The notes under the pieces are model-generated. The model was not told where the DNA came from. It worked only from the letters and a program-made list of their open reading frames with translations, and did not search any database. The translations under genes and the position numbers were made by a program. From a virus, in UHGV virus genome UHGV-0106586: DNA of 61,990 bases, one strand, 5' to 3'. Of the stretch, positions 46 through 41,962 are shown piece by piece; within the stretch, counting starts at the first letter, position 1, and each line of letters starts with the position of its first letter.

Positions 46-74
46 GGGGCTTACTTTATCGAACTATAAGCCCC
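46..74. terminator. GC-rich hairpin (ggggctta / taagcccc) just beyond the 3' end of minus-strand gene 87..470
   Basis: 8-bp inverted repeat seen in sequence; no clean U-run, so weak as an intrinsic terminator. Confidence 0.3.
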
Positions 75-86
75 TTGTAAAGTACT

Positions 87-470
87 TTATTTGTTAATTT
101 TGAAGATAGTTACATAACCATCGCTGCCGATGATTTGTGATGCTCCAGCTTTTTCTACTTGATAGCCCATATTTTCAAGATGGTAAACAGCATCATCATA
201 ACCATATGCGCCGCCCTGATAACGTCTCTTATCACATCTTACTAATACCTTTCCACGTCCTGCCAGTGCATTTAGTACGGCTTTTTCACTTGAAAGTGTA
301 CCATCTAACATGGTTGCCGTGTAATGGTTGATTCTATTCCCGTTTACATCATACTTAAAATTGAATGCGTGAACAACAATCAATTTGCCGTTAAATTTTT
401 CATCAAGTGACTTCTCCAGTGCGTTGCGAAAGTTGTCTTTATTGATGAATTTAGGTGCACGATAAGCCAT
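87..470 (-). CDS. hypothetical protein (127 aa)
   Basis: ORF with ATG start preceded by AGGAGA RBS (471-483 on minus strand); no motif recognised. Confidence 0.5.
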   Translation of the reverse strand: MAYRAPKFINKDNFRNALEKSLDEKFNGKLIVVHAFNFKYDVNGNRINHYTATMLDGTLSSEKAVLNALAGRGKVLVRCDKRRYQGGAYGYDDAVYHLENMGYQVEKAGASQIIGSDGYVTIFKINK

Positions 471-535
471 TTTTGAATCTCCTAGTTTAAGGACTTTACT
501 TAGTGGGGAAGGCCATTCCCTCCCTGTTGATGCAA

Positions 536-564
536 ATATTAGATAACCCTAGCCAGAGAGTCAA
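536..564 (-). promoter_or_regulatory. sigma70-like promoter for gene 87..470 (-35 TTGACT, 17-bp spacer, -10 TAATAT, read on minus strand)
   Basis: Hexamers and spacing read directly from the reverse complement of 536-564. Confidence 0.4.
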
Positions 565-740
565 GAAAAATTTTAAAAATATTTTTGCAAAAACTGTAAT
601 GAAACGGGCGCACGCGAATACCACAAAACAGAACTATAATCAAGAATTATTTTTCAATCCGCTACAAATTTTTCTGTTGACTTTTATTTCCAGATGTGGT
701 AGCCTTGTGAGAAATGGCGACATCCCCACCTGCACCCACC

Positions 741-919
741 TACCTGCACAATTCTAAAATGATTTTTCTTGCCCGACCTGAGCGGGGTCTGCACGTTTTG
801 AAAATGAAAAAGCTCTTTGGAGATTACCTGCACAGTTTGAAAATGAATTTTCTCTTTGGAGTTCAAAATTTTCTCTACAGATTTCTCTACAGAACTCTAC
901 CTGCACAATCCTGAAATGA
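741..919. repeat. Three copies of a 22-bp direct repeat (tacctgcaca-N-aaatga) at 741-762, 825-846, 898-919, plus tandem ttctctacag at 871-892
   Basis: Repeats seen directly in the intergenic sequence. Confidence 0.6.
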
Positions 920-992
920 AAAAGCCCCCCTTACCTGAAAAATTTACCAGATAAGAAAGGCTTAGTCTATTGTGAATATTCTACAGAGTTTC

Positions 993-1778
993 TTAGTTCT
1001 TTGCGTCTAAGAAGGTAACTTCCGGTGAAGAGAAGACCGTCTCGATATCCTCATCAGTTCTTGCATAGATATATGTATCTGCATCACTGCCAAATGTTAC
1101 TGCAATTCTGTGATTGCTCTTTGACAGGTGGGTAACTAGAGCGTTACTTAGAGACATCTTCTCAACCGGAGGGTTACTTTGATGTATCTTACCTTTTCTT
1201 CGTCTGAAGAGGGTAACTGTATCATCTGTGAACATTACTACACCTGCAAAGTATTCTGGTTCACAGTAGTTATTCCAACCTGAGCGTAACTTGTGGTACA
1301 TCTCTCCTTCGTAGACATACAGATAAACATCTACACTCTTCATCACCTGATTAATGATAACTGTGACGGCTTGAGGGTCTAGTCCACCGATACCTGCGCC
1401 AATCATAGGTAACCCGACTTTCTTCAACTGATTGACTTCACAGTATCTGTTAAGCTGTTTCAAAGATGACTCTAAAGCACTGTATCGGGCATCTTTACCA
1501 GTCTTAAGCTGAGTGTAAAGGTTAGCTATACGGCCTTGTTCTAAACGTGCTACAGAGAAATTGCCTAGTAAATTTTCACAGGGTTTGTGACCTATACCAC
1601 CTGCATACAGATAGACTTCTGTATCAGTCTCATATGCTTTTGGGTAAAGTTTAGAAATCTTGTCAGCGATACCTGCACCCATTAAATTCATACAGTTGCA
1701 ACCGTGACCAATAATATCAAACTTACCTTTATCAAATGCTGAGAAGATATCCCCATTGATGATTTTTACAATACCCAT
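993..1778 (-). CDS. macro-domain (ADP-ribose binding/processing-like) protein with ~130-aa C-terminal extension of unknown function
   Basis: N-terminal IIGHGCNCMNLMGAGIA and later LPMIGAGIGG resemble macro-domain glycine-rich ADP-ribose pocket motifs; recalled by eye, not searched. Confidence 0.5.
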   Translation of the reverse strand: MGIVKIINGDIFSAFDKGKFDIIGHGCNCMNLMGAGIADKISKLYPKAYETDTEVYLYAGGIGHKPCENLLGNFSVARLEQGRIANLYTQLKTGKDARYSALESSLKQLNRYCEVNQLKKVGLPMIGAGIGGLDPQAVTVIINQVMKSVDVYLYVYEGEMYHKLRSGWNNYCEPEYFAGVVMFTDDTVTLFRRRKGKIHQSNPPVEKMSLSNALVTHLSKSNHRIAVTFGSDADTYIYARTDEDIETVFSSPEVTFLDAKN

Positions 1779-2205: not shown

Positions 2206-2506
2206 AGTTTACCTTCTCAGTTAGTTCATATAAATCAACATGCTCAATACTATCAATGTTGATACCAATCTTTTTGAAGCGTTCTATCACTTCGTTGTCA
2301 GTCATCCATATCAGACACCAATGATTGTGTATGGATTCTTCAAGAAGGTCAACACAATCTTTAAAAGTTTTTGTATCACTTCTTGTCCCGACTACTGCAA
2401 TTGTTCCATATAACCACTTACCATTGCCGTAAGTTACTTGTGCTACACCAACTTCTTTATCGTTCTCATAGTAAACGGCTACAAAGTCTCTTCCATTAAT
2501 CTGCAT
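2180..2506 (-). CDS. hypothetical protein (108 aa)
   Basis: ORF in track, tight packing with neighbours. Confidence 0.4.
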   Translation of the reverse strand: MQINGRDFVAVYYENDKEVGVAQVTYGNGKWLYGTIAVVGTRSDTKTFKDCVDLLEESIHNHWCLIWMTDNEVIERFKKIGINIDSIEHVDLYELTEKVNYESNTSQR

Positions 2507-2508
2507 AG

Positions 2509-2778
2509 TTACTTCCTCGTTTTAAGAACTGCTAAGATTTCTTTAGAGTCTGGTAAGAACCATGTGTAGTGATTCTCTTTGATTTCTGGATGAGTGTCAA
2601 CCTTTATTTTGCAATCTTTACCAACATGCTTAAGCTGTGCTGTGACACCTTGCATAAAGATATGACACATCACGTTATCCATAATGGTTGGTATGAAGTC
2701 AATTCGCATATAAGTTTCTTTTGGTCGTGGTAACAGTAAGTACCCTTCTACGTAAAAAGTATCTTCATTCTCTGTCAT
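2509..2778 (-). CDS. hypothetical protein (89 aa)
   Basis: ORF in track; stop overlaps next start. Confidence 0.4.
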   Translation of the reverse strand: MTENEDTFYVEGYLLLPRPKETYMRIDFIPTIMDNVMCHIFMQGVTAQLKHVGKDCKIKVDTHPEIKENHYTWFLPDSKEILAVLKTRK

Positions 2779-3044
2779 TGCTGTTTATTTCCTAATAAAA
2801 TCATATCAATAAGGTTATTAGCTTTGATTGTACATTGGTAGAATCCATCACGATAAAACTCAAGGGCTGCTGCCACATCACTACCAGTATTACCTTTGAC
2901 AGTGAATCTTGACTCTTCTTGAGTGTACTTGTCACCCTCACTTACTTGGGAGTTTTTGAATGTACTGTTCACTTTGTTCGTTGAACACCCTGACATAATT
3001 ATCAGTAACACAAACATTATAAAACTCTGGCTTAGTCTTTTCAT
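2775..3044 (-). CDS. putative o-spanin (outer-membrane lipoprotein, Rz1-like), out of frame and overlapping the 3' end of the i-spanin gene
   Basis: N-terminal signal with lipobox IIMSGC; ATG with GAGG RBS; overlaps 2938-3044 of the i-spanin ORF in another frame. Confidence 0.5.
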   Translation of the reverse strand: MKRLSQSFIMFVLLIIMSGCSTNKVNSTFKNSQVSEGDKYTQEESRFTVKGNTGSDVAAALEFYRDGFYQCTIKANNLIDMILLGNKQQ

Positions 3045-3285
3045 ATGTTATTACCTCTTTTGTGTGCTTATTCTTAGCAAGCACATCTTTCAAATCATTT
3101 TTGTAATTGGTGCTGAGTGTGGCTAAACCCTCCTGATAAGCATCTTTAGCAACACTTATTAGTTTCTCATTATTTAGCTCAGTTTCAGCAACTTGGTAGT
3201 CTCTGTAAGAGTATCCTCCCCAGACACCTGCTCCAACTAAGAAAACAATTATGAAAGTAGCTTGGCAGAACTCTTTAAATGTCAT
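2938..3285 (-). CDS. putative i-spanin (Rz-like: N-terminal TM helix plus coiled-coil periplasmic domain)
   Basis: Hydrophobic FIIVFLVGAGVWGG segment followed by charged helical region; AGGAGA RBS; classic overlapped Rz/Rz1 arrangement. Confidence 0.5.
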   Translation of the reverse strand: MTFKEFCQATFIIVFLVGAGVWGGYSYRDYQVAETELNNEKLISVAKDAYQEGLATLSTNYKNDLKDVLAKNKHTKEVITYEKTKPEFYNVCVTDNYVRVFNEQSEQYIQKLPSK

Positions 3286-3304
3286 TTAACAATCTCCTGA
3301 AATG

Positions 3305-3330
3305 AAAAAGGCTCCCGAAGGAGCCTGTAT
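3305..3330 (-). terminator. rho-independent terminator (ggctcc-cgaa-ggagcc hairpin followed by U-run on minus strand)
   Basis: Perfect 6-bp stem with tetraloop at 3310-3325, A-run on plus strand at 3305-3309. Confidence 0.55.
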
Positions 3331-3337
3331 CTTAACC

Positions 3338-3802
3338 TTAACTGAGGACTTTAGCAAGGATATTCGCAGCCATCGAAGAAGCTTTTGCAGCAGCAACTAC
3401 GCCAGCTTTGACAGTGCCATCCTTAATAGCAGATACCGTTGCAGCATCAGTAAAGAGGTAAGTGATTGTTTTAGAACCACTTGTAAAGGAAAGCATAAGA
3501 GTAGTTTCCAGATTGAAAGAGCGATACGGAGCACCTTCTTTAACGATACCTTCAGCACCTAACTCTGAAGCCTTACCCATATCATAAATAGTCATCAGGT
3601 TTTCTTTGTGTGCAGTCGTTGAACCAGCACCTTTTACGTGCTTTTTAACATTCAACAATGCACGATATTCACGAATGCTGCCATCAGCTTTTACATTAAC
3701 AGCACGAAAAATTTTACCTTCAAAGTTACCTTGAATCAATTTACGAACTACTACAGATTTGTTTGTCGTATCGTCCAGTGCTACCGTAATGATATTGTTC
3801 AT
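3338..3802 (-). CDS. hypothetical protein (154 aa)
   Basis: ORF in track; no motif recognised. Confidence 0.45.
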   Translation of the reverse strand: MNNIITVALDDTTNKSVVVRKLIQGNFEGKIFRAVNVKADGSIREYRALLNVKKHVKGAGSTTAHKENLMTIYDMGKASELGAEGIVKEGAPYRSFNLETTLMLSFTSGSKTITYLFTDAATVSAIKDGTVKAGVVAAAKASSMAANILAKVLS

Positions 3803-3812
3803 AAGTTTTCTC

Positions 3813-4508
3813 TCAATGTTTAACTAACATGGTTTTAATGTGTGGAAGGATTCTATTTACCTTCTGAACATTCTTCTCTGTATCTTCTATAAAGCATACT
3901 ATATTAAAGTAAGGAAGAATGCAAGACTGAATCATCCTAACTTTTAAACTTTCTGCACTTATAGAGTTAGTTCCAAAACCACGCATAAAAAGCAAGTAAC
4001 CATGCTCTATATTGTGCCTTAAAAACATCTCAGTAGGTATTCTCTGAGATTCACCTCTTGCTGTCAAGAGTCCAACTGCTGCATGATTTGCAATTGCATC
4101 AATAATGTTGAAAACATATGTTGGCTTTGCTCTTACAGAATCAAGAAGATTAGTGTACTGTGAGAATGACCCATCAGTCAATTCCGTTGAACAATCTTCG
4201 TGATTAAAATTTGTGAGAACCCCATCAATATCTGCTAAGATGAGATTCCCTTTTTCTACAAGGTCTTTATTGACTATGACTAAGCTATCACGACTTACGC
4301 CTATAGATTGTCCAGTCTCTTTGTCCACAACGTTCACAATTGGTTCTGATGTGTGGAACTCTTCAAGTGAACATACAACTTCTCTTGCAGTGTCTTCAAA
4401 ATCCCTGCACTGTTCTGGAGTCCATACACAGGAATCAAGACCTAACTCATGAGGATGCGAGTCATAAGCATGGCACAGTACTTCATCAGACTTTCTTAAT
4501 TTTTTCAT
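3813..4508 (-). CDS. HAD-superfamily phosphatase, possible 5'(3')-deoxyribonucleotidase
   Basis: LILADIDGVLTNF matches HAD motif I (DxDGx); phage nucleotidase context. Confidence 0.5.
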   Translation of the reverse strand: MKKLRKSDEVLCHAYDSHPHELGLDSCVWTPEQCRDFEDTAREVVCSLEEFHTSEPIVNVVDKETGQSIGVSRDSLVIVNKDLVEKGNLILADIDGVLTNFNHEDCSTELTDGSFSQYTNLLDSVRAKPTYVFNIIDAIANHAAVGLLTARGESQRIPTEMFLRHNIEHGYLLFMRGFGTNSISAESLKVRMIQSCILPYFNIVCFIEDTEKNVQKVNRILPHIKTMLVKH

Positions 4509-5034
4509 GATTTACCTTAGAAATGTTTGTTGCAAATTCACATTGAGCGATAACTTTCATATTGTTATAGACATCTTGAGAGTATTTCTTAGCTTTAGGG
4601 ATTTTGTACGAATACCCAGCATTATATGATGCTAAAACTTTTTGTAAAGTCTTCTTTGATTTTGGCTGACCATGTACCTTTGTCCAAAACTCAAGCTCTT
4701 TATGTGTTTCTTTTGCGGCATAATCAAAATCCTTTAAGAGTTTCTTTTTAGCCACATTAGGACTGATTTTGTTACGCTTTACAACAGTCTTCAAGTGATT
4801 CTGGAAAATACCATAGTCATGGGTCTTTTTATTCTCTACCTTCAGACCTAACTCTGACTCTTGTAAGGCTATAGCTGCTAGAGTGATACCCCAACCTTTG
4901 CCCATATTATCCTCACCATACTGGTAAGCTTTTAACATGTTTACTTTTTGGCTAATTGATAGCTCTGGGCAGTCAACTGCATAAGATAAGTGTGCTGTAA
5001 ACATTAAGCACAAACCTAGAATCAACTTCTTCAT
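4486..5034 (-). CDS. secreted lytic transglycosylase-like protein (SLT family) with N-terminal signal peptide
   Basis: Signal MKKLILGLCLMFTAHLSYA; ALQESELG...YGIFQ and YNAG motifs resemble the SLT catalytic region. Confidence 0.5.
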   Translation of the reverse strand: MKKLILGLCLMFTAHLSYAVDCPELSISQKVNMLKAYQYGEDNMGKGWGITLAAIALQESELGLKVENKKTHDYGIFQNHLKTVVKRNKISPNVAKKKLLKDFDYAAKETHKELEFWTKVHGQPKSKKTLQKVLASYNAGYSYKIPKAKKYSQDVYNNMKVIAQCEFATNISKVNHEKIKKV

Positions 5035-5097
5035 TGGTTCTCCTGTTTAGTTTATCGTGACAACAATTATACAGCACTCTGCACAAAATACAAATAA

Positions 5098-5122
5098 AAA
5101 AGGCCGCCGAAGCAGCCTTTTA
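5098..5122 (-). terminator. hairpin terminator downstream of rIIB
   Basis: aggccgc-cgaa-gcagcct stem-loop with flanking A/T runs. Confidence 0.45.
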
Positions 5123-5134
5123 AGAAATTACTTA

Positions 5135-6244
5135 TTAGATTTCACGTTTACGCTGAGAGATGAGTTCCCCAGCAGTGCCAACGATGACATGCAAAGCTTC
5201 AGTCTTGCCATCCCATGCTTTCAGCACTTTACGTTGATTGTCAACGATTGCTGCAACTTCATAACGTGATGAACGCATCTTCATATCGTTGTAATCAGTT
5301 GGAACAGATACAACATCTCGTGGATGGACACGAACCTTCAGAATTGTATCACCTGAGAAGCAACGAACATAATCCCAAGCACCAACGTGAAGACCTTGAG
5401 AGCAAGTCACGTTACGGTTATTATCAACCATCCAACGTGGCATTTCTACAATGTTACCCAAATCATTAGGTACTCTGTAGGTACGGGAATCAACTAGCTT
5501 GCCTTCATGAGTAGAGACTTTCTTCCATCCAATGATGTAACCTTCTTCATCAATTTCAACATCAAGGTGTGATACGAATCCCCAAAGTTGTTCTACAGAG
5601 TCTTTAGATGGGTTTTCCATCAGTTTTTCGAAGAACATTACAAGTCGTTCAAAACCTTTATCACCAGTCTTCATCATGTGAAGAATACGGTCAACCAGAG
5701 TAGAACGCATCTCAACAGCACCGTAGAATAACTTGTCACCTTTGATTGTGATAGCACCCTGAGTGAAGTTTTCGATAGACTTACGAATATTCATCAGTTC
5801 AAAGGCTTTCTTAAACTCACCTTTCACAACATGAACTACAATCTCTTGATAGTTCGGATGAGTAGACTCAACAATTTCAGATTCTGAACCGTAAGTCATA
5901 ATTACAGAGTCGCCAGTAATCATGTACTCAATCTTGTCATCTTTCTGCATAGCTTCATGCAGTTTATTTACCGGAGCTTTCTGTACAGACTCTTTAACGA
6001 CCTTTTCAACTGGTTTGTCAGCTTTCTTTTTAAAGGTCTTAGCAACTTGCTTCAAAGTCTTCTTAGCTGGTGTAGAAGTCGCCTTCTTATTTCCTTTTAA
6101 GGTTGCTTCATGACGCTCTACAGCACGACCAACTGAACGGGTTGAAGTATTAAATTTCTGTGCAATAGCTGTTTTAGTCAGCTTGCCCTCTTTAACCAGT
6201 TTGTAAATTTCTGCGTCAATCTGTGCTTTAGTTTTAGTAGTCAT
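5135..6244 (-). CDS. rIIB: rIIB-like protein
   Basis: C-terminal region ...VHPRDVVSVPTDYNDMKMRSSRYEV and GAITIKGDKLFYGAVEMRSTLVDRIL align with T4 rIIB as recalled. Confidence 0.8.
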   Translation of the reverse strand: MTTKTKAQIDAEIYKLVKEGKLTKTAIAQKFNTSTRSVGRAVERHEATLKGNKKATSTPAKKTLKQVAKTFKKKADKPVEKVVKESVQKAPVNKLHEAMQKDDKIEYMITGDSVIMTYGSESEIVESTHPNYQEIVVHVVKGEFKKAFELMNIRKSIENFTQGAITIKGDKLFYGAVEMRSTLVDRILHMMKTGDKGFERLVMFFEKLMENPSKDSVEQLWGFVSHLDVEIDEEGYIIGWKKVSTHEGKLVDSRTYRVPNDLGNIVEMPRWMVDNNRNVTCSQGLHVGAWDYVRCFSGDTILKVRVHPRDVVSVPTDYNDMKMRSSRYEVAAIVDNQRKVLKAWDGKTEALHVIVGTAGELISQRKREI

Positions 6245-6292
6245 CTTATTACTCTCTCTTGTTAGTTAATAAATCATTTTGTGAGTCTATTC

Positions 6293-6313
6293 TAAGGGGC
6301 TTCAAAGCCCCTT
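6293..6313 (-). terminator. small hairpin between rIIA and rIIB
   Basis: agggg-loop-cccct seen in sequence. Confidence 0.3.
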
Positions 6314-6323
6314 GTCAAACACT

Positions 6324-8690
6324 TTAATCGTAAATTGTAGTCCCTTCTGGAACACACTTCACATCAAAGCCCAAGAACTTACTCACTTCGATGGGTGACA
6401 CTTTATTCCAATCTAAATGAGAAAGCAAGAAGTTTTCTTGTTTTCTTTTTGAGAAGTAGTTTGTCACCTTAATAAACATACGGTCACCAGCTTTCTTAAT
6501 TTTCTTGTAAAGCTTTGTATCCTTACCAAGACACCTTTTCAAATCTTGCAATACACTAATAGTGTAAGTGTATGCAAATTGTGCAGCAACGTATTGGATT
6601 TTACCGAACATTGCCTCAACAGCATCTTCATTACCTTCTAGGAAGATAGTTTTGTTTGTGTCCCGTGAATAGCAATAACCATCAGAAATCTTCCTGTTAT
6701 TGAACGTAAAGTTTCTGGTAATAATCCAACAGCTTGTAAGGTTAAGGACACCACGCATACAGATGCGTGTCATATACCTGTTATGATTAATCCAATGAAC
6801 ATCAGTTAAGCTGTCGTTCAAGAGCTTCTCATCTACTTCAATCCAGTCTTCTGGTATCTTTTTCCAATTTGCTTTTCGGAAAACATAGACTGTCTTCCCT
6901 ATAACATTAGCAACTGACTTAGCTACATCTTCTGGAGATGAGCAAAAACATTTGCCATCAACTGTGTCACCAACTGCCTTAATGTAAAGCTGAGGTTCTT
7001 CAATTGTGTCTAAGTCTTCTGATACCTCTTTGTAGGAGGCTACACCTTCTGCTGGAACAGCTTTCCAGAGTTTTACAACACCTCTTACAGCTTCTTTACG
7101 CTGATAGTGATGTTCCTTATCAGACATCTTCACAATCTTTAACAAGCTTTTATCAAGTTTGTGTAGGTTGATTAAGTCATCTAGCTCTTTTTCAGTCGAG
7201 AATACAAACACAATACCATTATATCTGTGAAACAGACTTGACTCGTTGGCGTAGTCTCGACATGCACCACGCAAGATTTGATTGCGTCCTACAGTCTTTT
7301 CAGTTCCATTTTTATTGCGACGGTCATTAATCACGAACAAAAACTGTTCAATTTGGCTTTTACGCATTGCACCAAAGATATTGAACATACTTGCCTCTTG
7401 AGTGTAGGAAAGTGCTGTTGCACGAATCTTACTCTCTAAAGAGTTGAACTTGACATAAGCAACTGGATTATAAAGATAATCCACTTTAGGGATATTGTTC
7501 CCGTTCCTATCAACCTTGATATTACCTTTACCGTCACGTTCATAAATGACTGAGCCGTCTTCTGCGTAGATAATCCCACGACGGATGTTTAGTAATTCTA
7601 CTTCCAGAGAATCAAGCTTAACGCCTCCCCACTCTAGCTTTGGACACACAACATTAAACATCTCTCGTGAGTTCAAACGTAACTCAGCATAAGCCTGTGC
7701 AGCATCCATGAGTGTAGGTTGACTATTAACTTTCTTGATAACATCCTTTGTAATTGCTTCAGTTATCTTTTTAGTAGCCTCAATGATAACATTTTTTGTC
7801 GTGTCATTCATCTGCAATGCTTCACGAGAAGCTGCAATAGCAACTGAACCAATAGGCATGTAGATGTTTACAAGGTCTACGCTCCTACGGAAAAACTCTG
7901 GCAAGACTTTGAAGAAATCATCACCAAGTAATGCTTCCATGTTAACTGGATAGGCGATATTACCCATCACCACATTAAACTCTGTCCTGTTACCACTAGA
8001 ACGCCAGCTTTGCTTATGAATCATGGCATCATAAACACCCTCTTCACGGGCAATGACGTTCATATCTGCTAATACATCGTCATACTCGATATTACTTTCT
8101 GGTTTTACAGCAAAGTATGAATATACATTACCAGCCTCTTCAAAGAACTTTGAGATACGATGGTCAGCAACTGCTACACGTACAGCTAAACCATTAGGTT
8201 CTTTTGTTGGGTTAGTGGTTAGCTTAGTTACTTGAGGGATACCATTCTCAAGATAAACAGAGTACTTATTAACAACACCGTCAACATAGCTAGACACTGT
8301 GAATGACTGAGCAATTGCAAATGGTGATTTTGAGCCGATACCCATTGCACCAATGTAGTCATTAGAGTCATTCTTCGTAGAAGCCCCATAGTTTAGGTAC
8401 AAACTCATAACTTTATCATGAGTTAATCCAGTTCCAAAATCACGAACTTCAAAGTAAGGCTCAAAACGAGTAGGTAAATGCACATGGAACGGGATGTTCT
8501 CTTTTCCAGCCTCTTTCTGAGCATCTACTGCGTTACATGACAGTTCACGAATCACTGCCCTTTCTTTAAAGGTATATACACCAGAACTCAAAAGGCTGAA
8601 CATTTCAGGTGTCATTGTAATCTGTGCTTGAGACGTCTCTAAAGAAGTTGAACTCTTAATCACTTCTGCGTGGTCGTTTACCATGCGCAT
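6324..8690 (-). CDS. rIIA: rIIA-like protein (GHKL ATPase-like N-terminus)
   Basis: KERAVIRELSCNAVDAQ, RDFGTGL and NDYIGAMGIGSKSPF match T4 rIIA N-terminal motifs as recalled. Confidence 0.85.
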   Translation of the reverse strand: MRMVNDHAEVIKSSTSLETSQAQITMTPEMFSLLSSGVYTFKERAVIRELSCNAVDAQKEAGKENIPFHVHLPTRFEPYFEVRDFGTGLTHDKVMSLYLNYGASTKNDSNDYIGAMGIGSKSPFAIAQSFTVSSYVDGVVNKYSVYLENGIPQVTKLTTNPTKEPNGLAVRVAVADHRISKFFEEAGNVYSYFAVKPESNIEYDDVLADMNVIAREEGVYDAMIHKQSWRSSGNRTEFNVVMGNIAYPVNMEALLGDDFFKVLPEFFRRSVDLVNIYMPIGSVAIAASREALQMNDTTKNVIIEATKKITEAITKDVIKKVNSQPTLMDAAQAYAELRLNSREMFNVVCPKLEWGGVKLDSLEVELLNIRRGIIYAEDGSVIYERDGKGNIKVDRNGNNIPKVDYLYNPVAYVKFNSLESKIRATALSYTQEASMFNIFGAMRKSQIEQFLFVINDRRNKNGTEKTVGRNQILRGACRDYANESSLFHRYNGIVFVFSTEKELDDLINLHKLDKSLLKIVKMSDKEHHYQRKEAVRGVVKLWKAVPAEGVASYKEVSEDLDTIEEPQLYIKAVGDTVDGKCFCSSPEDVAKSVANVIGKTVYVFRKANWKKIPEDWIEVDEKLLNDSLTDVHWINHNRYMTRICMRGVLNLTSCWIITRNFTFNNRKISDGYCYSRDTNKTIFLEGNEDAVEAMFGKIQYVAAQFAYTYTISVLQDLKRCLGKDTKLYKKIKKAGDRMFIKVTNYFSKRKQENFLLSHLDWNKVSPIEVSKFLGFDVKCVPEGTTIYD

Positions 8691-8718: not shown

Positions 8719-8895
8719 TTACTTATTAAACATTTTACCAGAACCACCACACATAGGGCAACAACCTGCTCTTGTATAGCCTTCTCCATTACAGTAGTCA
8801 CATTTTTTGTGTTCTGCAAAGTACTTACAAAGAAGATAAACAAGGACTGCTACACTACCAAGTGACAGCAAAATTTCTATCCAATATGCTTGCAT
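8719..8895 (-). CDS. small TM plus Cys-rich (CxxC...CxxC) protein, 58 aa, below the ORF-track length cutoff
   Basis: Translated by hand: MQAYWIEILLSLGSVAVLVYLLCKYFAEHKKCDYCNGEGYTRAGCCPMCGGSGKMFNK. Confidence 0.25.
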   Translation of the reverse strand: MQAYWIEILLSLGSVAVLVYLLCKYFAEHKKCDYCNGEGYTRAGCCPMCGGSGKMFNK

Positions 8896-9212
8896 GACTC
8901 ACCTCTCATATTCTTGTAAAGGATAAAGCTTCTGTCATGGACGATACTTGTAGATACTGCAAAGTTACTTTCAAGCATCTGTTTGTTTGGATTGTAGAAG
9001 CTTTCTTTAAACTCGTCAAGTGCAAATTGGTGATTGTCTGGAAGACCTTTTACACAGACCTTTATTGTGATTGCTGCTGCAATCTTACCAGTCAGTTCTT
9101 CTTTAGCTGCTACTAAAATTTTGTTAAGGAACTTACGACCATTTTCAGGTTTCTTGATGTTCTCCCAACGTTCTTCTAAGACGATGTTGATGTTCATCTC
9201 TTTGATTTTCAT
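8877..9212 (-). CDS. hypothetical protein (111 aa)
   Basis: ORF in track. Confidence 0.4.
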   Translation of the reverse strand: MKIKEMNINIVLEERWENIKKPENGRKFLNKILVAAKEELTGKIAAAITIKVCVKGLPDNHQFALDEFKESFYNPNKQMLESNFAVSTSIVHDRSFILYKNMRGESCKHIG

Positions 9213-9229
9213 AATCTTCTCCAGAAATT

Positions 9230-9252
9230 AAAAAGGCTCCCGTAGGAGCCTC
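9230..9252 (-). terminator. rho-independent terminator (ggctcc-cgta-ggagcc)
   Basis: Hairpin 9235-9250 with A-run upstream on plus strand. Confidence 0.5.
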
Positions 9253-35174: not shown

Positions 35175-35330
35175 ATGAAACGCAAAGTAAAATTCTTTAG
35201 TTTGTATGGAAGAGTCGGTAAAGGTTTTGATTGGCAACTTCTACGTTCAGATGTTAAAAGCAACGAGTTAGCACAGCTTATTATAAACTATCGACGAACG
35301 TACAGAGAAGTAGAACATCGTGAACAGTAA
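35175..35330 (+). CDS. small hypothetical protein (51 aa), below track cutoff
   Basis: Hand-translated MKRKVKFFSLYGRVGKGFDWQLLRSDVKSNELAQLIINYRRTYREVEHREQ; GGAGA RBS. Confidence 0.3.
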   Translation: MKRKVKFFSLYGRVGKGFDWQLLRSDVKSNELAQLIINYRRTYREVEHREQ

Positions 35331-35343
35331 TAGGAGAAGTATT

Positions 35344-35580
35344 ATGTGGAAAGCAGTAATTGTGCTTAGTGTTATCCTTCTATCTGGCTGTAATCCCTCT
35401 TACGAGGACAAAAATGCTTCTTATAGCCTCCCACCAGAGATGCAAGATTGCAAAGTCTATAAGTTACATGGTGATGCCATAAGCAGAGATATTGTTGTTG
35501 TCAGATGTCCAAACTCTCAAACAACAACATCTTATAGCTATGGAAAAAATGGTCAATCACACACTACTGTTATTGAGTGA
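35344..35580 (+). CDS. small lipoprotein (78 aa), early region
   Basis: Signal MWKAVIVLSVILLSGC with lipobox LSGC; ATG with AGGAGA RBS. Confidence 0.5.
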   Translation: MWKAVIVLSVILLSGCNPSYEDKNASYSLPPEMQDCKVYKLHGDAISRDIVVVRCPNSQTTTSYSYGKNGQSHTTVIE

Positions 35581-41396: not shown

Positions 41397-41768
41397 TCAC
41401 TTTTCAGTATTCTTTGTGTTCTTTTCAGTAATAGCTTGGAGGGCTGATACTGATTGAGCCAGATTATTCACACTATCAGAGAATTTATCAAGAGTCTTAG
41501 TAAGTTTTGCGTTCTCACCCTTAACATTCTCTAACTGGACTTTCTGGTTCTCCATCCCTAGCTGAAGCAACCTCATATCAGACTGTAAATCACGGATAGC
41601 TGAATAATTACTTTTGGAATAATTATCCAACTGCTGTAACTTTGTTGTGATAGACACTTCTTGTTTACCATCCGAAACTTGCATGGTGGTATACATCCCA
41701 ATAACACTAAAAATACCAACTACAATTGCACCAATATTATTTTTAAAAGCTTCATCTAGCCACTTCAT
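41397..41768 (-). CDS. membrane-anchored coiled-coil protein (123 aa)
   Basis: N-terminal hydrophobic IGAIVVGIFSVIGMY followed by Q/L-rich helical region. Confidence 0.4.
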   Translation of the reverse strand: MKWLDEAFKNNIGAIVVGIFSVIGMYTTMQVSDGKQEVSITTKLQQLDNYSKSNYSAIRDLQSDMRLLQLGMENQKVQLENVKGENAKLTKTLDKFSDSVNNLAQSVSALQAITEKNTKNTEK

Positions 41769-41962
41769 TTATTCTCCCCCTTAAAAGCTTTTTCTAAGTT
41801 ATCTACGAACTCATCATCAATAGGTGTGTCTGTTTTACTCGCAAGGTATCTTGCAAGCTTAAAGAACACTTTCTCAATCATGTATTCACTTAGAAGGGAT
41901 AAAATGAGTTTCCAGAAGAAGCTACCTAGATTTTTTAGAAGAATTGCTAGGATTGTAGGCAT
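41765..41962 (-). CDS. small hydrophobic protein (65 aa)
   Basis: ORF in track; hydrophobic N-terminal region. Confidence 0.35.
   Translation of the reverse strand: MPTILAILLKNLGSFFWKLILSLLSEYMIEKVFFKLARYLASKTDTPIDDEFVDNLEKAFKGENK

What the first reader, a model, noticed from the sequence alone, without database searches (positions are those of the whole stretch)
2775..5034. Overlapped spanin pair and a signal-peptide lytic transglycosylase placed among early/metabolic genes
An Rz/Rz1-like overlapped pair (lipoprotein gene out of frame with the 3' part of the TM/coiled-coil gene) lies ~1.2 kb from a secreted SLT-like enzyme. No holin was confidently identified nearby. A signal-peptide-bearing muralytic enzyme suggests holin-independent or secretion-dependent lysis, or a role other than lysis.
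Basis: partly seen in the sequence, partly recalled or inferred. Interest (0 to 1): 0.3.

Follow-up and report, generated by a model that had tools for sequence, protein, structure and literature searches.

The report
Felix O1-type spanins plus Vs.1-like transglycosylase
This stretch of a Felix O1-like phage holds the phage's already catalogued outer-membrane-disrupting spanin gene pair and a small secreted cell-wall-cutting enzyme related to T4 Vs.1; the enzyme family is widespread in phages and its role is still unknown.

Summary
The window is a Felixounavirus (Felix O1-like myovirus), 96-97% identical to many sequenced phages.

- **Spanins.** 3285..2938(-) encodes an i-spanin with an N-terminal transmembrane segment. 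[quoted passage not shown] GenBank relatives annotate the pair as spanins. Kongari et al. 2018 list Felix O1 among the overlapped two-component spanins.
- **Scattered lysis genes.** This phage group is documented to lack a lysis cassette. A putative holin lies at 41397..41768(-). The GH24 lysozyme endolysin lies outside the window.
- **SLT-like gene.** 5034..4486(-) encodes a 182-aa protein with a cleavable signal peptide and all three family-1 lytic transglycosylase motifs (E59-S60, G75-x-F-Q78, S136-Y-N-A-G140). The AlphaFold model has a goose-lysozyme/EtgA-like fold. It is a homologue of T4 Vs.1 (32% identity, E 1e-16). Relatives occur in 2129 phage records, and the phages examined here also carry a separate lysozyme-type enzyme.
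- **Reading.** The enzyme is therefore most likely an accessory periplasmic wall-cutting enzyme, not a holin-independent endolysin. Its actual role is untested.

Low interest as filed. The only open point is what the Vs.1 family does.

The parts
2775..3044 (-). o-spanin gene (89 aa): outer-membrane lipoprotein, lipobox IMSG|C20, Ser21-Thr22 after the lipidated Cys, second conserved Cys71
   Evidence: Searches give the ORF and its GAGGT Shine-Dalgarno sequence. PHROG hits are phrog_4180 (4e-50) and, weakly, phrog_456 'Rz-like spanin' (4e-4). C20, S21, T22 and C71 are invariant in 5 relatives at 28-48% identity. It is annotated O-spanin in Pr103Blw and JLBYU32. A family member lies in an endolysin/i-spanin/o-spanin cassette in Proteus phage 2207-N35.
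2938..3285 (-). i-spanin gene (115 aa): N-terminal transmembrane segment, periplasmic domain with conserved N-x-C92-V-[ST]-D-x-Y...F-N motif
   Evidence: One search gives the ORF. It matches phrog_1152 'Rz-like spanin' at 3e-42. Alignment A2 has invariant G24, E82, K83, N90, C92, Y97, F101 and N102. It is annotated I-spanin or Rz-like spanin in many relatives.
2938..3044 (-). 107-nt dual-coding overlap of the i-spanin 3' end (frame 0) and the o-spanin 5' end (frame +1)
   Evidence: The same overlapped layout occurs in L015, L016, L017, L018 and L019.
3309..3326 (-). Intrinsic-terminator-like hairpin and T-run, 23 nt upstream of the i-spanin start codon
   Evidence: One search finds the site. 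A 91%-identical copy of the terminator-plus-RBS cassette lies at 9218..9251 (family D1).
3338..3802 (-). 154-aa protein of unknown function between the phosphatase and the spanins
   Evidence: It matches phrog_2267 (unknown function) at 4e-49. The homologue in L005 carries a weak WYL_2 hit.
3813..4508 (-). 231-aa HAD-type phosphatase annotated as 'polynucleotide kinase'; its start overlaps the SLT-like gene's end by 23 nt
   Evidence: It matches phrog_3970 at 6e-133. Only the DxDG phosphatase region aligns, weakly, with T4 PseT. The overlap with the SLT-like gene is also present in the 37%-identity relative L005.
4486..5034 (-). Vs.1-family small secreted lytic transglycosylase (182 aa): signal peptide aa 1-19 (nt 5034..4978), catalytic Glu59 (nt 4860..4858)
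   Evidence: - Pfam SLT scores 19.3 bits, below the gathering score of 21.3; phrog_600 scores 1e-57.
- Motif conservation is shown.
- A family profile hits the PDB entry for EtgA at 7e-4.
- The AlphaFold model has pLDDT 85. Foldseek matches g-type lysozyme, EtgA and MltE and phage SLT proteins.
- T4 Vs.1 is 32% identical, E 1e-16.
5098..5121 (-). Intrinsic-terminator-like hairpin between rIIB and the SLT-like gene, followed by a TATAAT element
   Evidence: One search finds the hairpin. The sequence is read.
5135..8690 (-). rIIB (5135..6244) and rIIA (6324..8690), immediately upstream
   Evidence: PHROG hits are phrog_609 (4e-88) and phrog_612 (1e-188). The order rIIA-rIIB-SLT-phosphatase is kept in L005.
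993..1778 (-). Macro-domain protein, homologue of T4 Tk.4, near the end of the gene run that starts with the spanins
   Evidence: Pfam Macro scores 1e-7. T4 Tk.4 gives a tblastn hit of 34% identity, E 3.5e-21. A terminator-like site lies at 963..922.
41397..41962 (-). Distant lysis-gene candidates: a 123-aa putative holin (41397..41768; one N-terminal transmembrane segment plus a long helical tail) and a 65-aa hydrophobic protein (41765..41962), lying next to the tail-fibre genes
   Evidence: Pr103Blw_00076 'putative holin' maps here at 95% identity. The PHROG families are of unknown function, so the holin assignment rests on annotation only.

Best explanation
The region is part of a conserved block of non-structural genes in a Felix O1-like (Ounavirinae) myovirus. 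Like T4, this phage group has lysis genes scattered around the genome rather than in a cassette.

**The spanin pair.** The overlapped pair is the phage's two-component spanin.
- The i-spanin is anchored in the inner membrane by its N-terminal transmembrane segment.
- The o-spanin is lipidated at Cys20 and sorted to the outer membrane.
- The two bind across the periplasm, probably stabilised by homotypic disulfides through i-Cys92 and o-Cys71.
- After the endolysin has removed the peptidoglycan mesh, they fuse the inner and outer membranes as the last step of lysis.

**The endolysin and holin.** The endolysin is a cytoplasmic GH24 lysozyme encoded outside this window. It is released by a holin, with a candidate at 41397..41768.

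**The 182-aa enzyme.** It is a separate thing: a member of the T4 Vs.1 family of small phage lytic transglycosylases.
- It is exported by the Sec pathway.
- Signal peptidase I cleaves it after Ala19.
- It is probably disulfide-bonded (Cys22-Cys165) in the periplasm.
- There Glu59 would cleave glycan strands.
- It is an accessory enzyme that modifies or locally loosens the wall during infection, possibly priming it for faster lysis. It is not the enzyme that triggers lysis.

**Shown here:** gene structures, signals, motifs, fold, homologies and synteny.

**Inferred:** export, catalysis, the disulfides, expression timing and the accessory role.
For: **Identity of the phage and its annotation**
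- The region is 96-97% identical to Felixounavirus genomes, several of which annotate i-/o-spanin and an SLT-domain protein.

**Spanins**
- PHROG spanin families are hit.
- The transmembrane segment, lipobox, overlap and Cys residues are conserved across Ounavirinae genera and a Gorganvirus.
- The family member in Proteus phage 2207-N35 lies directly after the endolysin gene.
- This is the only lipobox ORF in the window paired with an upstream membrane-protein gene.
- Felix O1 is listed among overlapped spanins in PMC6139136.
- Lysis genes are stated to be scattered in Felix O1-like phages in PMC4319497.

**Endolysin and holin located elsewhere**
- The relative's endolysin matches PF00959 at 1e-40 and has no match in the window.
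- The putative holin is matched at 95% identity at 41400..41768.

**Lytic transglycosylase**
- E59 is invariant and S60 is present in 147 of 153 members. G75, Q78, S136, Y137, N138 and G140 are also conserved.
- A family profile hits EtgA at 7e-4 and goose lysozyme.
- The confident AlphaFold model (pLDDT 85) matches g-type lysozyme, EtgA and MltE.
- 157 of 168 family members have a hydrophobic N-terminus.
- An N-terminal Cys is present in 48 members, and 47 of these also have the C-terminal Cys. This fits a periplasmic disulfide.

**Accessory status**
- The protein is homologous to T4 Vs.1.
- T4 has its own endolysin gene e.
- A metagenomic relative (L006) also has a separate Phage_lysozyme gene.
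- Homologues occur in 2129 phage records, including Tequatrovirus, Ackermannviridae and Aeromonas and Vibrio phages.
- A chimallin-encoding contig also carries a family member.
- An experimental precedent for a signal-peptide transglycosylase acting as an additional endolysin from an early promoter is Kayvirus Tgl (PMC7150955).
Against: - No experiment bears on this protein or on T4 Vs.1. The only paper found merely notes a marginal SLT match.
- The Pfam SLT score is below the gathering threshold (19.3 versus 21.3 bits). Foldseek TM-scores against solved structures are moderate (0.45-0.55).
- Expression timing is unknown. The spanins sit 23 nt behind a terminator-like hairpin with no recognisable promoter of their own.
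- The T4 late-promoter motif is not enriched in the window.
- The holin assignment is annotation only.
- The i-spanin periplasmic coiled coil could not be confirmed, because the single-sequence model has pLDDT 51.
- The o-spanin has no prolines, unlike lambda Rz1.
- Neither spanin shows detectable similarity to T4 PseT.3 or PseT.2.
Confidence: 0.8

Rival explanations
1. The secreted SLT-like enzyme is the real or a sufficient lysis enzyme. It accumulates in the periplasm through the Sec pathway and causes holin-independent (or only membrane-depolarisation-dependent) lysis, with the nearby spanins finishing the job.
For: - The signal peptide and the conserved catalytic motifs are present.
- The gene lies in the same gene run as the spanins.
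- Secreted endolysins exist in other phages, for example Kayvirus Tgl, which lysed E. coli when expressed with its signal peptide.
Against: - Relatives carry a canonical cytoplasmic GH24 endolysin and a putative holin.
- T4, which has the homologue Vs.1, depends on genes e and t for lysis (established knowledge; e is seen).
- The gene is separated from the spanins by two unrelated genes and a terminator-like hairpin.
- In the relative L005 no spanin candidate lies in the 5 kb downstream of the SLT-like gene.
- The Ounavirinae phage Arno18 has an unrelated gene at this position while keeping the spanins.
- The title and abstract of PMC10139938, listed, state that E. coli has robust mechanisms against elevated lytic transglycosylase activity. 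That paper was not read in full.
Confidence: 0.07
2. The Vs.1-like enzyme acts on the envelope for a purpose other than releasing progeny. Possibilities include changing the peptidoglycan so that superinfecting phages or lysis from without are less effective, taking part in rII- or rI-type control of lysis timing, or opening the wall locally for a phage-made envelope structure, as EtgA and VirB1 do for secretion systems.
For: - The closest solved relative by sequence is the type III secretion transglycosylase EtgA.
- The gene directly follows rIIA-rIIB here and in a 37%-identity relative.
- In T4, vs.1 lies about 2 kb from rI.
- The family occurs in phages that already have a separate lysozyme-type enzyme: T4, relatives of this phage, and L006.
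Against: - There is no functional data at all.
- Adjacency to rII is not seen in T4, where vs.1 sits next to regB, nor in L006, L008 or L010.
- No partner envelope machine is evident nearby.
Confidence: 0.12
3. The out-of-frame lipoprotein ORF is a chance ORF, and the 115-aa membrane protein is not a spanin.
For: Neither protein matches T4 PseT.3 or PseT.2, Pfam or NCBIfam. The o-spanin lacks the proline-rich region of lambda Rz1.
Against: - The ORF, its lipobox and its C-terminal motif are conserved down to 28% identity in four other lineages, always overlapping the homologous upstream gene.
- It has a strong Shine-Dalgarno sequence.
- PHROG spanin families are hit.
- A family member lies in a lysis cassette in Proteus phage 2207-N35.
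- Felix O1 is listed in the spanin census.
Confidence: 0.01

Closest known systems
Felix O1 / FO1a / UAB_phi87 overlapped two-component spanins (Kongari et al. 2018, PMC6139136)
   Same: Same gene pair. The Felix O1 genome holds a 93%-identical o-spanin (H36). The overlapped architecture, transmembrane segment and lipobox are the same.
   Different: Nothing of substance. This window is another isolate of the same genus.
Phage T4 spanins PseT.3/PseT.2 and T4-style scattered lysis genes
   Same: - The spanins lie far from the holin and endolysin genes, among early or metabolic genes.
- They lie next to a PseT-type phosphatase gene (one search compared).
- The o-spanin is not proline-rich, and Cys residues are conserved.
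   Different: - There is no detectable sequence similarity.
- The T4 genes are in the 'separated' architecture and lie upstream of pseT. Here they overlap and lie downstream.
- The T4 i-spanin has no periplasmic Cys. This one has the conserved Cys92.
Phage T4 Vs.1 (NP_049725, 181 aa; conserved ORF of T4-like phages with a marginal SLT match, PMC1524935)
   Same: - It is homologous over nearly the full length (32% identity, E 1e-16).
- It has the same size, an N-terminal signal-like segment and the same ES, FQ and SYN-G motifs.
- It occurs in a phage that has a separate lysozyme endolysin.
- A Tk.4-type macro-domain gene lies downstream in both.
   Different: - In T4 the neighbours are regB and vs, not rIIB and a phosphatase.
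- T4 Vs.1 lacks the Cys22/Cys165 pair.
- Function is unknown in both.
Specialised small lytic transglycosylases of secretion systems (EtgA, and by general knowledge IpgF, IagB and VirB1)
   Same: They share the size of about 150-180 aa, a Sec signal peptide, family-1 SLT motifs and a goose-lysozyme-like fold. EtgA is the best PDB sequence hit (7e-4) and also a Foldseek hit.
   Different: The gene is encoded by virulent phages with no secretion-system genes around it. No partner such as EscI is known.
Kayvirus Tgl (Staphylococcus phage secreted transglycosylase, PMC7150955)
   Same: It is a phage-encoded transglycosylase with a signal peptide, present in addition to the main endolysin. It can be transcribed from an early-type promoter and is proposed to be an auxiliary endolysin.
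   Different: Its host is Gram-positive and it belongs to the IsaA/SceD-type family. Homology to the protein here was not tested.

Membership tests
Two-component spanin, overlapped architecture | i-spanin: small inner-membrane protein with a single N-terminal transmembrane segment and a periplasmic C-terminal domain | tested here: met
   Residues 9-27, ATFIIVFLVGAGVWGGYSY, are hydrophobic and the rest is polar. The layout is the same in 4 relatives. It matches phrog_1152 'Rz-like spanin' at 3e-42.
Two-component spanin, overlapped architecture | o-spanin: lipoprotein signal with a lipobox Cys and no Asp at +2 (outer-membrane sorting) | tested here: met
   The N-terminus reads MKRLSQSFIMFVLLIIMSG-C20-S-T. 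Cys, Ser and Thr are invariant in alignment A3. A regex scan finds only this and one unrelated lipobox ORF in the window.
Two-component spanin, overlapped architecture | The o-spanin gene starts inside the i-spanin gene in another frame and ends beyond it | tested here: met
   The i-spanin is at 3285..2938 and the o-spanin at 3044..2775. The frame offset is +1 and the overlap 107 nt. The same arrangement occurs in L015 to L019.
Two-component spanin, overlapped architecture | Periplasmic Cys residues available for homotypic intermolecular disulfides | tested here: met
   i-spanin C92 and o-spanin C71 are invariant. Actual disulfide formation was not tested.
Two-component spanin, overlapped architecture | Helical or coiled-coil periplasmic domain in the i-spanin | tested here: inconclusive
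   The single-sequence AlphaFold model shows helices at 27-71 followed by a beta-hairpin, but its pLDDT is only 51.
Two-component spanin, overlapped architecture | Genetic linkage to holin and endolysin genes | tested here: not met
   The endolysin is absent from the window and the holin candidate is about 36 kb away. This is typical for Felix O1-like phages and T4. A family member in Proteus phage 2207-N35 is linked to an endolysin gene. Linkage is usual but not obligatory for spanins.
Two-component spanin, overlapped architecture | Required for outer-membrane disruption; complements lambda Rz/Rz1 | not testable with these tools
   This needs a lysis assay.
Family-1 lytic transglycosylase (SLT domain, PF01464) | Catalytic Glu in the E-S motif | tested here: met
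   E59 is present in 153 of 153 family members. S60 is present in 147 of 153, with Thr in the other 6.
Family-1 lytic transglycosylase (SLT domain, PF01464) | Motif II G-[LIV]-[MF]-Q and motif III [AS]-Y-N-[AS]-G | tested here: met
   Motif II is G75-I-F-Q78 and motif III is S136-Y137-N138-A139-G140. Y137 and G140 are invariant.
Family-1 lytic transglycosylase (SLT domain, PF01464) | Score at or above the Pfam gathering threshold | tested here: not met
   The score is 19.3 bits against a cut-off of 21.3. More distant family members do carry PF01464 hits. A family profile hits EtgA at 7e-4.
Family-1 lytic transglycosylase (SLT domain, PF01464) | Goose-lysozyme-like all-alpha fold | tested here: met
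   The model has pLDDT 85 and pTM 0.79. Foldseek gives probability 1.00 to g-type lysozymes and EtgA and 0.95 to MltE (4hjv), with TM-scores of 0.45-0.55. Phage SLT proteins match with TM-scores of about 0.7.
Family-1 lytic transglycosylase (SLT domain, PF01464) | Produces 1,6-anhydroMurNAc ends from peptidoglycan | not testable with these tools
   This needs an enzyme assay with muropeptide analysis.
T4 Vs.1 family (phrog_600) | Full-length homology to T4 Vs.1, with the same size and an N-terminal export signal | tested here: met
   BLASTP gives 32% identity over 174 columns, E 1e-16, for 182 versus 181 aa. It matches phrog_600 at 1e-57 over the full profile. 157 of 168 family sequences have a hydrophobic N-terminus.
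SAR (signal-anchor-release) or otherwise secreted endolysin acting as the lysis enzyme | Uncleaved, weakly hydrophobic Gly/Ala/Ser-rich N-terminal membrane domain; the sole or main muralytic enzyme; linked to a (pin)holin gene | tested here: not met
   The h-region is short (13 aa) and Leu-rich, and is followed by the S-Y-A|V cleavage motif. Relatives have a separate GH24 endolysin. No holin gene is adjacent.

The most novel reading that the evidence does not exclude
The Vs.1 family is a conserved, Sec-exported lytic transglycosylase. It appears in 2129 phage records and about 1265 clusters at 50% identity, and has not been studied experimentally in any paper I could find. It may have a specific, general role in infection by large virulent phages of Gram-negative bacteria. 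Candidate roles are pre-weakening or re-patterning the peptidoglycan so that holin-triggered lysis and spanin-driven membrane fusion are fast, or modulating lysis timing or superinfection together with the rII/rI systems it sometimes neighbours. If so, it would be a fourth, overlooked component of Gram-negative phage lysis or envelope control.
Probability: 0.25. Interest if true: 0.5.

Novelty: already known. Interest (0 to 1): 0.2.

Why it matters
As filed, it matters little. The spanin pair is catalogued, and the scattered layout of lysis genes is a known trait of Felix O1-like and T4-like phages.

The residual value is a pointer. A small secreted lytic transglycosylase with an invariant catalytic glutamate is kept in thousands of virulent phages, including the model phage T4 (gene vs.1). 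The phages examined here already have an endolysin. No paper held in the library reports its function.

T4 and Felix O1 are genetically tractable, so the question can be tested directly. The answer could refine the three-step model of Gram-negative lysis, or reveal a new envelope-directed early function.

For genome annotation, three practical points follow:
- The 'hypothetical protein', 'lysin' or (in several T4-like and Ackermannviridae records) 'RegB' label on this gene should read 'Vs.1-like lytic transglycosylase'.
- The o-spanin start should be the upstream ATG at 3044.
- The 'polynucleotide kinase' is probably only a HAD phosphatase.

Tried and rejected
- **Homology of the spanins to T4 PseT.3/PseT.2.** None was found. 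The shared neighbourhood with a PseT-like gene is therefore a positional parallel only.
- **'Polynucleotide kinase' versus T4 PseT.** Only a weak match to the phosphatase half was found.
- **NCBIfam and PADLOC scans of the region's proteins.** There were no meaningful hits. The 2-phosphosulfolactate phosphatase hit to the i-spanin scores 20 bits against a cut-off of 323 and is noise.
- **Single-sequence PDB search with the SLT-like protein.** There were no hits. Only the family profile reached EtgA.
- **T4 late-promoter motif TATAAATA.** There are 2 matches in the window against 3.7 expected, and none near the region. Timing could not be read from promoters. The sigma-70-like scan is only modestly above background (37 found against 25.5 expected).
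- **AlphaFold on the i-spanin without an alignment.** The model is low-confidence. Sequences from fetched loci could not be submitted as an alignment.
- **Search for spanins next to the SLT-like gene in the distant relative L005.** None was found within 5 kb, so the SLT-spanin linkage is not general.
- **Literature on Vs.1 function.** Only the 2006 note of a marginal SLT match was found. The T4 genome review was not held in the library.
- **Idea that the SLT-like protein is a lipoprotein (LGLC at residues 6-9).** Rejected. The Cys comes too early and Leu occupies position -1.

Full report
**What the window is.** A megablast of 2500..5300 finds 258 phage records. Of these, 256 cover most of the query, and the best are 96-97% identical. 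They are Felixounavirus (Ounavirinae) myoviruses of Escherichia, Salmonella and Shigella, such as ECML-1, Pr103Blw and EC6. Mapping onto Pr103Blw (88,421 bp) shows that the window corresponds to roughly 20-82 kb of that genome in reverse orientation.

**Checking the observation.** On the minus strand the genes run in this order:
- rIIA (8690..6324)
- rIIB (6244..5135)
- a 182-aa protein (5034..4486)
- a 231-aa protein annotated as 'polynucleotide kinase' (4508..3813)
- a 154-aa protein of unknown function (3802..3338)
- a 115-aa membrane protein (3285..2938)
- an 89-aa lipoprotein (3044..2775)

The 89-aa ORF starts 241 nt after the 115-aa ORF, so it is in the +1 frame. It shares 107 nt with that ORF and runs 163 nt beyond it. 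It begins MKRLSQSFIMFVLLIIMSG-C-S-T and has a GAGGT ribosome-binding site. The 115-aa protein has one N-terminal hydrophobic segment. The 182-aa protein begins MKKLILGLCLMFTAHLSYA|VD.

**The spanins are real and already known.**
- The 115-aa protein matches PHROG 1152 'Rz-like spanin' at 3e-42. The 89-aa protein matches phrog_4180 and, weakly, the spanin family phrog_456.
- GenBank records of close relatives already label the two genes I-spanin and O-spanin.
- I recovered the homologous loci from other phages: Kolesnikvirus (Erwinia phage vEam_PM_6 and Salmonella phage SeKF_13), Pectobacterium phage Arno18, an Ounavirinae record labelled Listeria phage LPML1, and the unrelated Gorganvirus Proteus phage 2207-N35.
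- In every one, a gene for a protein with an N-terminal transmembrane segment is overlapped out of frame by a lipoprotein gene.
- At 23-48% identity the lipidated Cys and the following Ser-Thr are invariant. So is a second Cys in the o-spanin (C71) and one Cys in the i-spanin (C92). This fits the disulfide-linked spanin complexes described by Kongari et al..
- In Proteus phage 2207-N35 the pair directly follows the endolysin gene. That is independent contextual support for a lysis role.
- Kongari et al. 2018 list 'Felix01, FO1a, UAB_phi87' as a group of overlapped two-component spanins.
- A lipobox scan of all ORFs in the window finds only this gene and one unrelated small ORF at 35344..35580. 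This pair is therefore the window's only spanin candidate.

**Why the spanins sit among metabolic genes.**
- The genome announcement of the Felix O1-like phage Moogle names four lysis genes: a soluble lysozyme endolysin, the i-spanin, the o-spanin and a putative holin. [quoted passage not shown]
- I confirmed this here. The relative's 154-aa 'putative lysis protein' is a GH24 phage lysozyme (PF00959, 1e-40; phrog_7 endolysin) with no signal sequence. Neither it nor T4 lysozyme has any tblastn match in the window. The endolysin gene therefore lies in the part of the genome outside the window.
- The relative's 'putative holin' maps at 95% identity to 41400..41768(-). It is a 123-aa protein with one N-terminal transmembrane segment and a long polar tail, and it lies next to the tail-fibre genes. 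Its PHROG family has no assigned function, so the holin label is only a prediction.
- T4 shows the same scattered pattern. Its spanins pseT.3 and pseT.2 lie beside the polynucleotide kinase gene pseT, far from t and e.
- The parallel with this window, where the spanins lie two genes from a PseT-like phosphatase, is positional only. The spanins show no detectable similarity to the T4 proteins.

**The SLT-like protein.**
- The Pfam SLT domain is hit just below threshold (19.3 versus 21.3 bits).
- Homologues gathered from the 5.8-billion-protein set, aligned as A1, show invariant E59, G63, Q78, Y137, N138, G140 and Y151.
- A profile search of 1.84 billion cluster representatives finds 1265 members, 604 of them at E <= 1e-10. 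Nearly all are 160-200 aa long and match over the full length.
- In 153 aligned members, E59, Y137, G140 and Y151 are invariant, and S60 is present in 147. These are the three signature motifs of family-1 lytic transglycosylases: E-S, G-x-[FM]-Q and [AS]-Y-N-[AS]-G. That assignment rests on established knowledge of the family.
- The family profile's best solved relative is EtgA, the type III secretion transglycosylase (7e-4), followed by goose-type lysozymes.
- An AlphaFold model built from A1 is confident (pLDDT 85, and above 90 for residues 27-165). Foldseek matches it to g-type lysozymes, EtgA, MltE, MltF and Slt-type enzymes and to phage 'SLT domain' proteins.
- Evidence for export is indirect but consistent. 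157 of 168 family sequences have a hydrophobic N-terminus. The Ounavirinae members have small-x-small sites after a short h-region. Of the 48 family members with a Cys just after the signal, 47 also have a Cys near the C-terminus. That is the pattern expected of a periplasmic disulfide.

**It is a T4 Vs.1 homologue.**
- A tblastn of the phage collection finds the protein in 2129 records. They include Tequatrovirus, Klebsiella, Aeromonas and Vibrio phages with genomes of about 160-250 kb, and Ackermannviridae. In several of these records the match falls on a gene annotated 'RegB'.
- In T4 the match is gene vs.1 (181 aa), next to regB. It is 32% identical to the window protein, E 1e-16.
- The only relevant statement I could find in the literature is from Nolan et al. 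2006. [quoted passage not shown] Further searches found nothing functional.
- Family members also occur in a contig encoding chimallin, the nucleus-shell protein of phiKZ-like jumbo phages. Another lies in a metagenomic phage contig next to an anti-defence Gad2 gene, with a separate Phage_lysozyme gene nearby.
- T4 Tk.4, a macro-domain protein two genes downstream of vs.1, is homologous to the window's macro-domain protein at 1778..993. The window block therefore reads like T4's vs.1...tk.4 segment with a phosphatase-plus-spanin segment inserted. This is an inference from gene order alone.

**Synteny and transcription signals.**
- The order rIIA-rIIB-SLT-phosphatase, including the short overlap of the SLT-like gene's end with the phosphatase gene's start, is kept in a relative whose SLT-like protein is only 37% identical (L005).
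- Kolesnikvirus (45% identity) and LPML1 (55%) also have the SLT-like gene immediately upstream of the gene in the phosphatase position, which is annotated 'polynucleotide kinase' in Kolesnikvirus.
- The linkage to the spanins is not general. L005 has no spanin candidate within 5 kb downstream. Arno18 has an unrelated gene in the SLT position but keeps the spanins.
- Terminator-like hairpins lie after rIIB (5121..5098), before the i-spanin (3326..3309) and after the macro-domain gene (963..922). This suggests three units: rIIA-rIIB, then SLT-phosphatase-154aa, then spanins and small genes through to macro.
- A TATAAT element follows the first hairpin. No promoter is recognisable in the 23 nt between the second hairpin and the i-spanin start codon.
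- The T4 late-promoter motif is not enriched. Expression timing therefore remains undetermined.

**Interpretation.** The spanin pair does what spanins do. Its placement is normal for this phage group.

The secreted enzyme is very unlikely to be a holin-independent endolysin, for three reasons:
- The phages examined that carry it also carry a canonical lysozyme.
- T4 genetics (established knowledge) assigns lysis to genes t and e.
- Its signal is a cleavable Sec signal rather than a SAR domain.

The best-supported mechanism is a Sec-exported, soluble periplasmic lytic transglycosylase that cleaves glycan strands during infection as an accessory function. The nearest experimental precedent is Kayvirus Tgl, a signal-peptide transglycosylase transcribed from an early-type promoter and proposed to assist the main endolysin. 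Whether the Vs.1 family primes the wall for lysis, affects superinfection or lysis timing, or does something else cannot be decided from sequence.

**Verdict.**
- Novelty: already known. The spanins are catalogued, the SLT domain is annotated in some relatives, and the family was noted in T4-like phages in 2006.
- Interest is low (0.2). The one open and testable point is the function of the widespread Vs.1 family.

Noticed in passing
window 35344..35580 (+) (alternative GTG start at 35320): This is the only other lipoprotein-signal ORF in the window. It encodes 78 aa beginning MWKAVIVLSVILLSG|CNPSYEDK and matches phrog_902 (unknown function). It lies among small genes downstream of the DNA polymerase gene. 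It could be a receptor-blocking or superinfection-exclusion lipoprotein of the T5 Llp kind, but that is speculation.
   Followed up: partly
window 3813..4508 (-): The protein annotated 'polynucleotide kinase' in relatives has no Walker-A motif. Only its DxDG HAD-phosphatase region (ILADIDGVL) aligns weakly with the phosphatase half of T4 PseT. It is probably a phosphatase only. Its start codon overlaps the end of the SLT-like gene by 23 nt, and a similar overlap exists in a 37%-identity relative.
   Followed up: partly
window 3293..3326 and 9218..9251: A terminator hairpin plus the next gene's ribosome-binding site (AGGCTCCnnCGGGAGCCTTTTTnATTTCnGGAGA on the minus strand) occurs twice at 91% identity. 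One copy lies before the i-spanin gene and the other before the gene at 9212..8877.
   Followed up: no
window 470..993 (intergenic), e.g. 741-769, 825-853, 898-926 and 789-822/828-861: This unusually long non-coding stretch contains several direct repeats of about 30-40 nt sharing the core TACCTGCACA...GAAAATGA. It ends in a terminator-like hairpin at 963..922. Its function is unknown.
   Followed up: no
window 68..99 and 6305..6336: An 81%-identical 32-nt element carries a sigma-70-like -35 box on the minus strand: TTGACA upstream of rIIB and TTTACA at the window's left end. It is probably a repeated promoter type recognised by the host polymerase.
   Followed up: no
window 8719..8895 (-): This ORF encodes a 58-aa protein with one transmembrane segment followed by a Cys-rich CxxCxGxG...CPxCxG zinc-ribbon-like tail. 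It lies immediately upstream of rIIA and matches phrog_3931 (unknown function).
   Followed up: no
L005 7398..7676 and 7678..7905: In a distant relative, two small proteins with several hydrophobic segments (92 and 75 aa) lie between rIIB and the SLT-like gene. They look holin-like. Nothing comparable exists at that position in the window.
   Followed up: no
window 993..1778 (-) versus T4 tk.4 (L011 1923..2390): The macro-domain protein is a homologue of T4 Tk.4 (34% identity, E 3.5e-21). In both phages it lies downstream of the Vs.1-type gene in the same orientation. This hints at a shared ancestral gene block.
   Followed up: partly
phage collection records MG065668.1, OK283618.1 and several T4-like and Ackermannviridae records: Some database labels look wrong.
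- 'Campylobacter phage A126' carries a 99.5%-identical copy of the SLT-like gene.
- 'Listeria phage LPML1' is an Ounavirinae genome with outer-membrane spanins, so its stated Gram-positive host is implausible.
- In several T4-like and Ackermannviridae records the match falls on a gene annotated 'RegB' or 'endoribonuclease'.
   Followed up: no
window 41765..41962 (-): This ORF encodes a 65-aa hydrophobic protein (MPTILAILLKNLGSFFWKLILSLL...TDTPIDDEF, phrog_402, unknown function). It lies directly upstream of the annotated putative holin and overlaps it by 4 nt. It could be the true holin or an antiholin partner.
   Followed up: no
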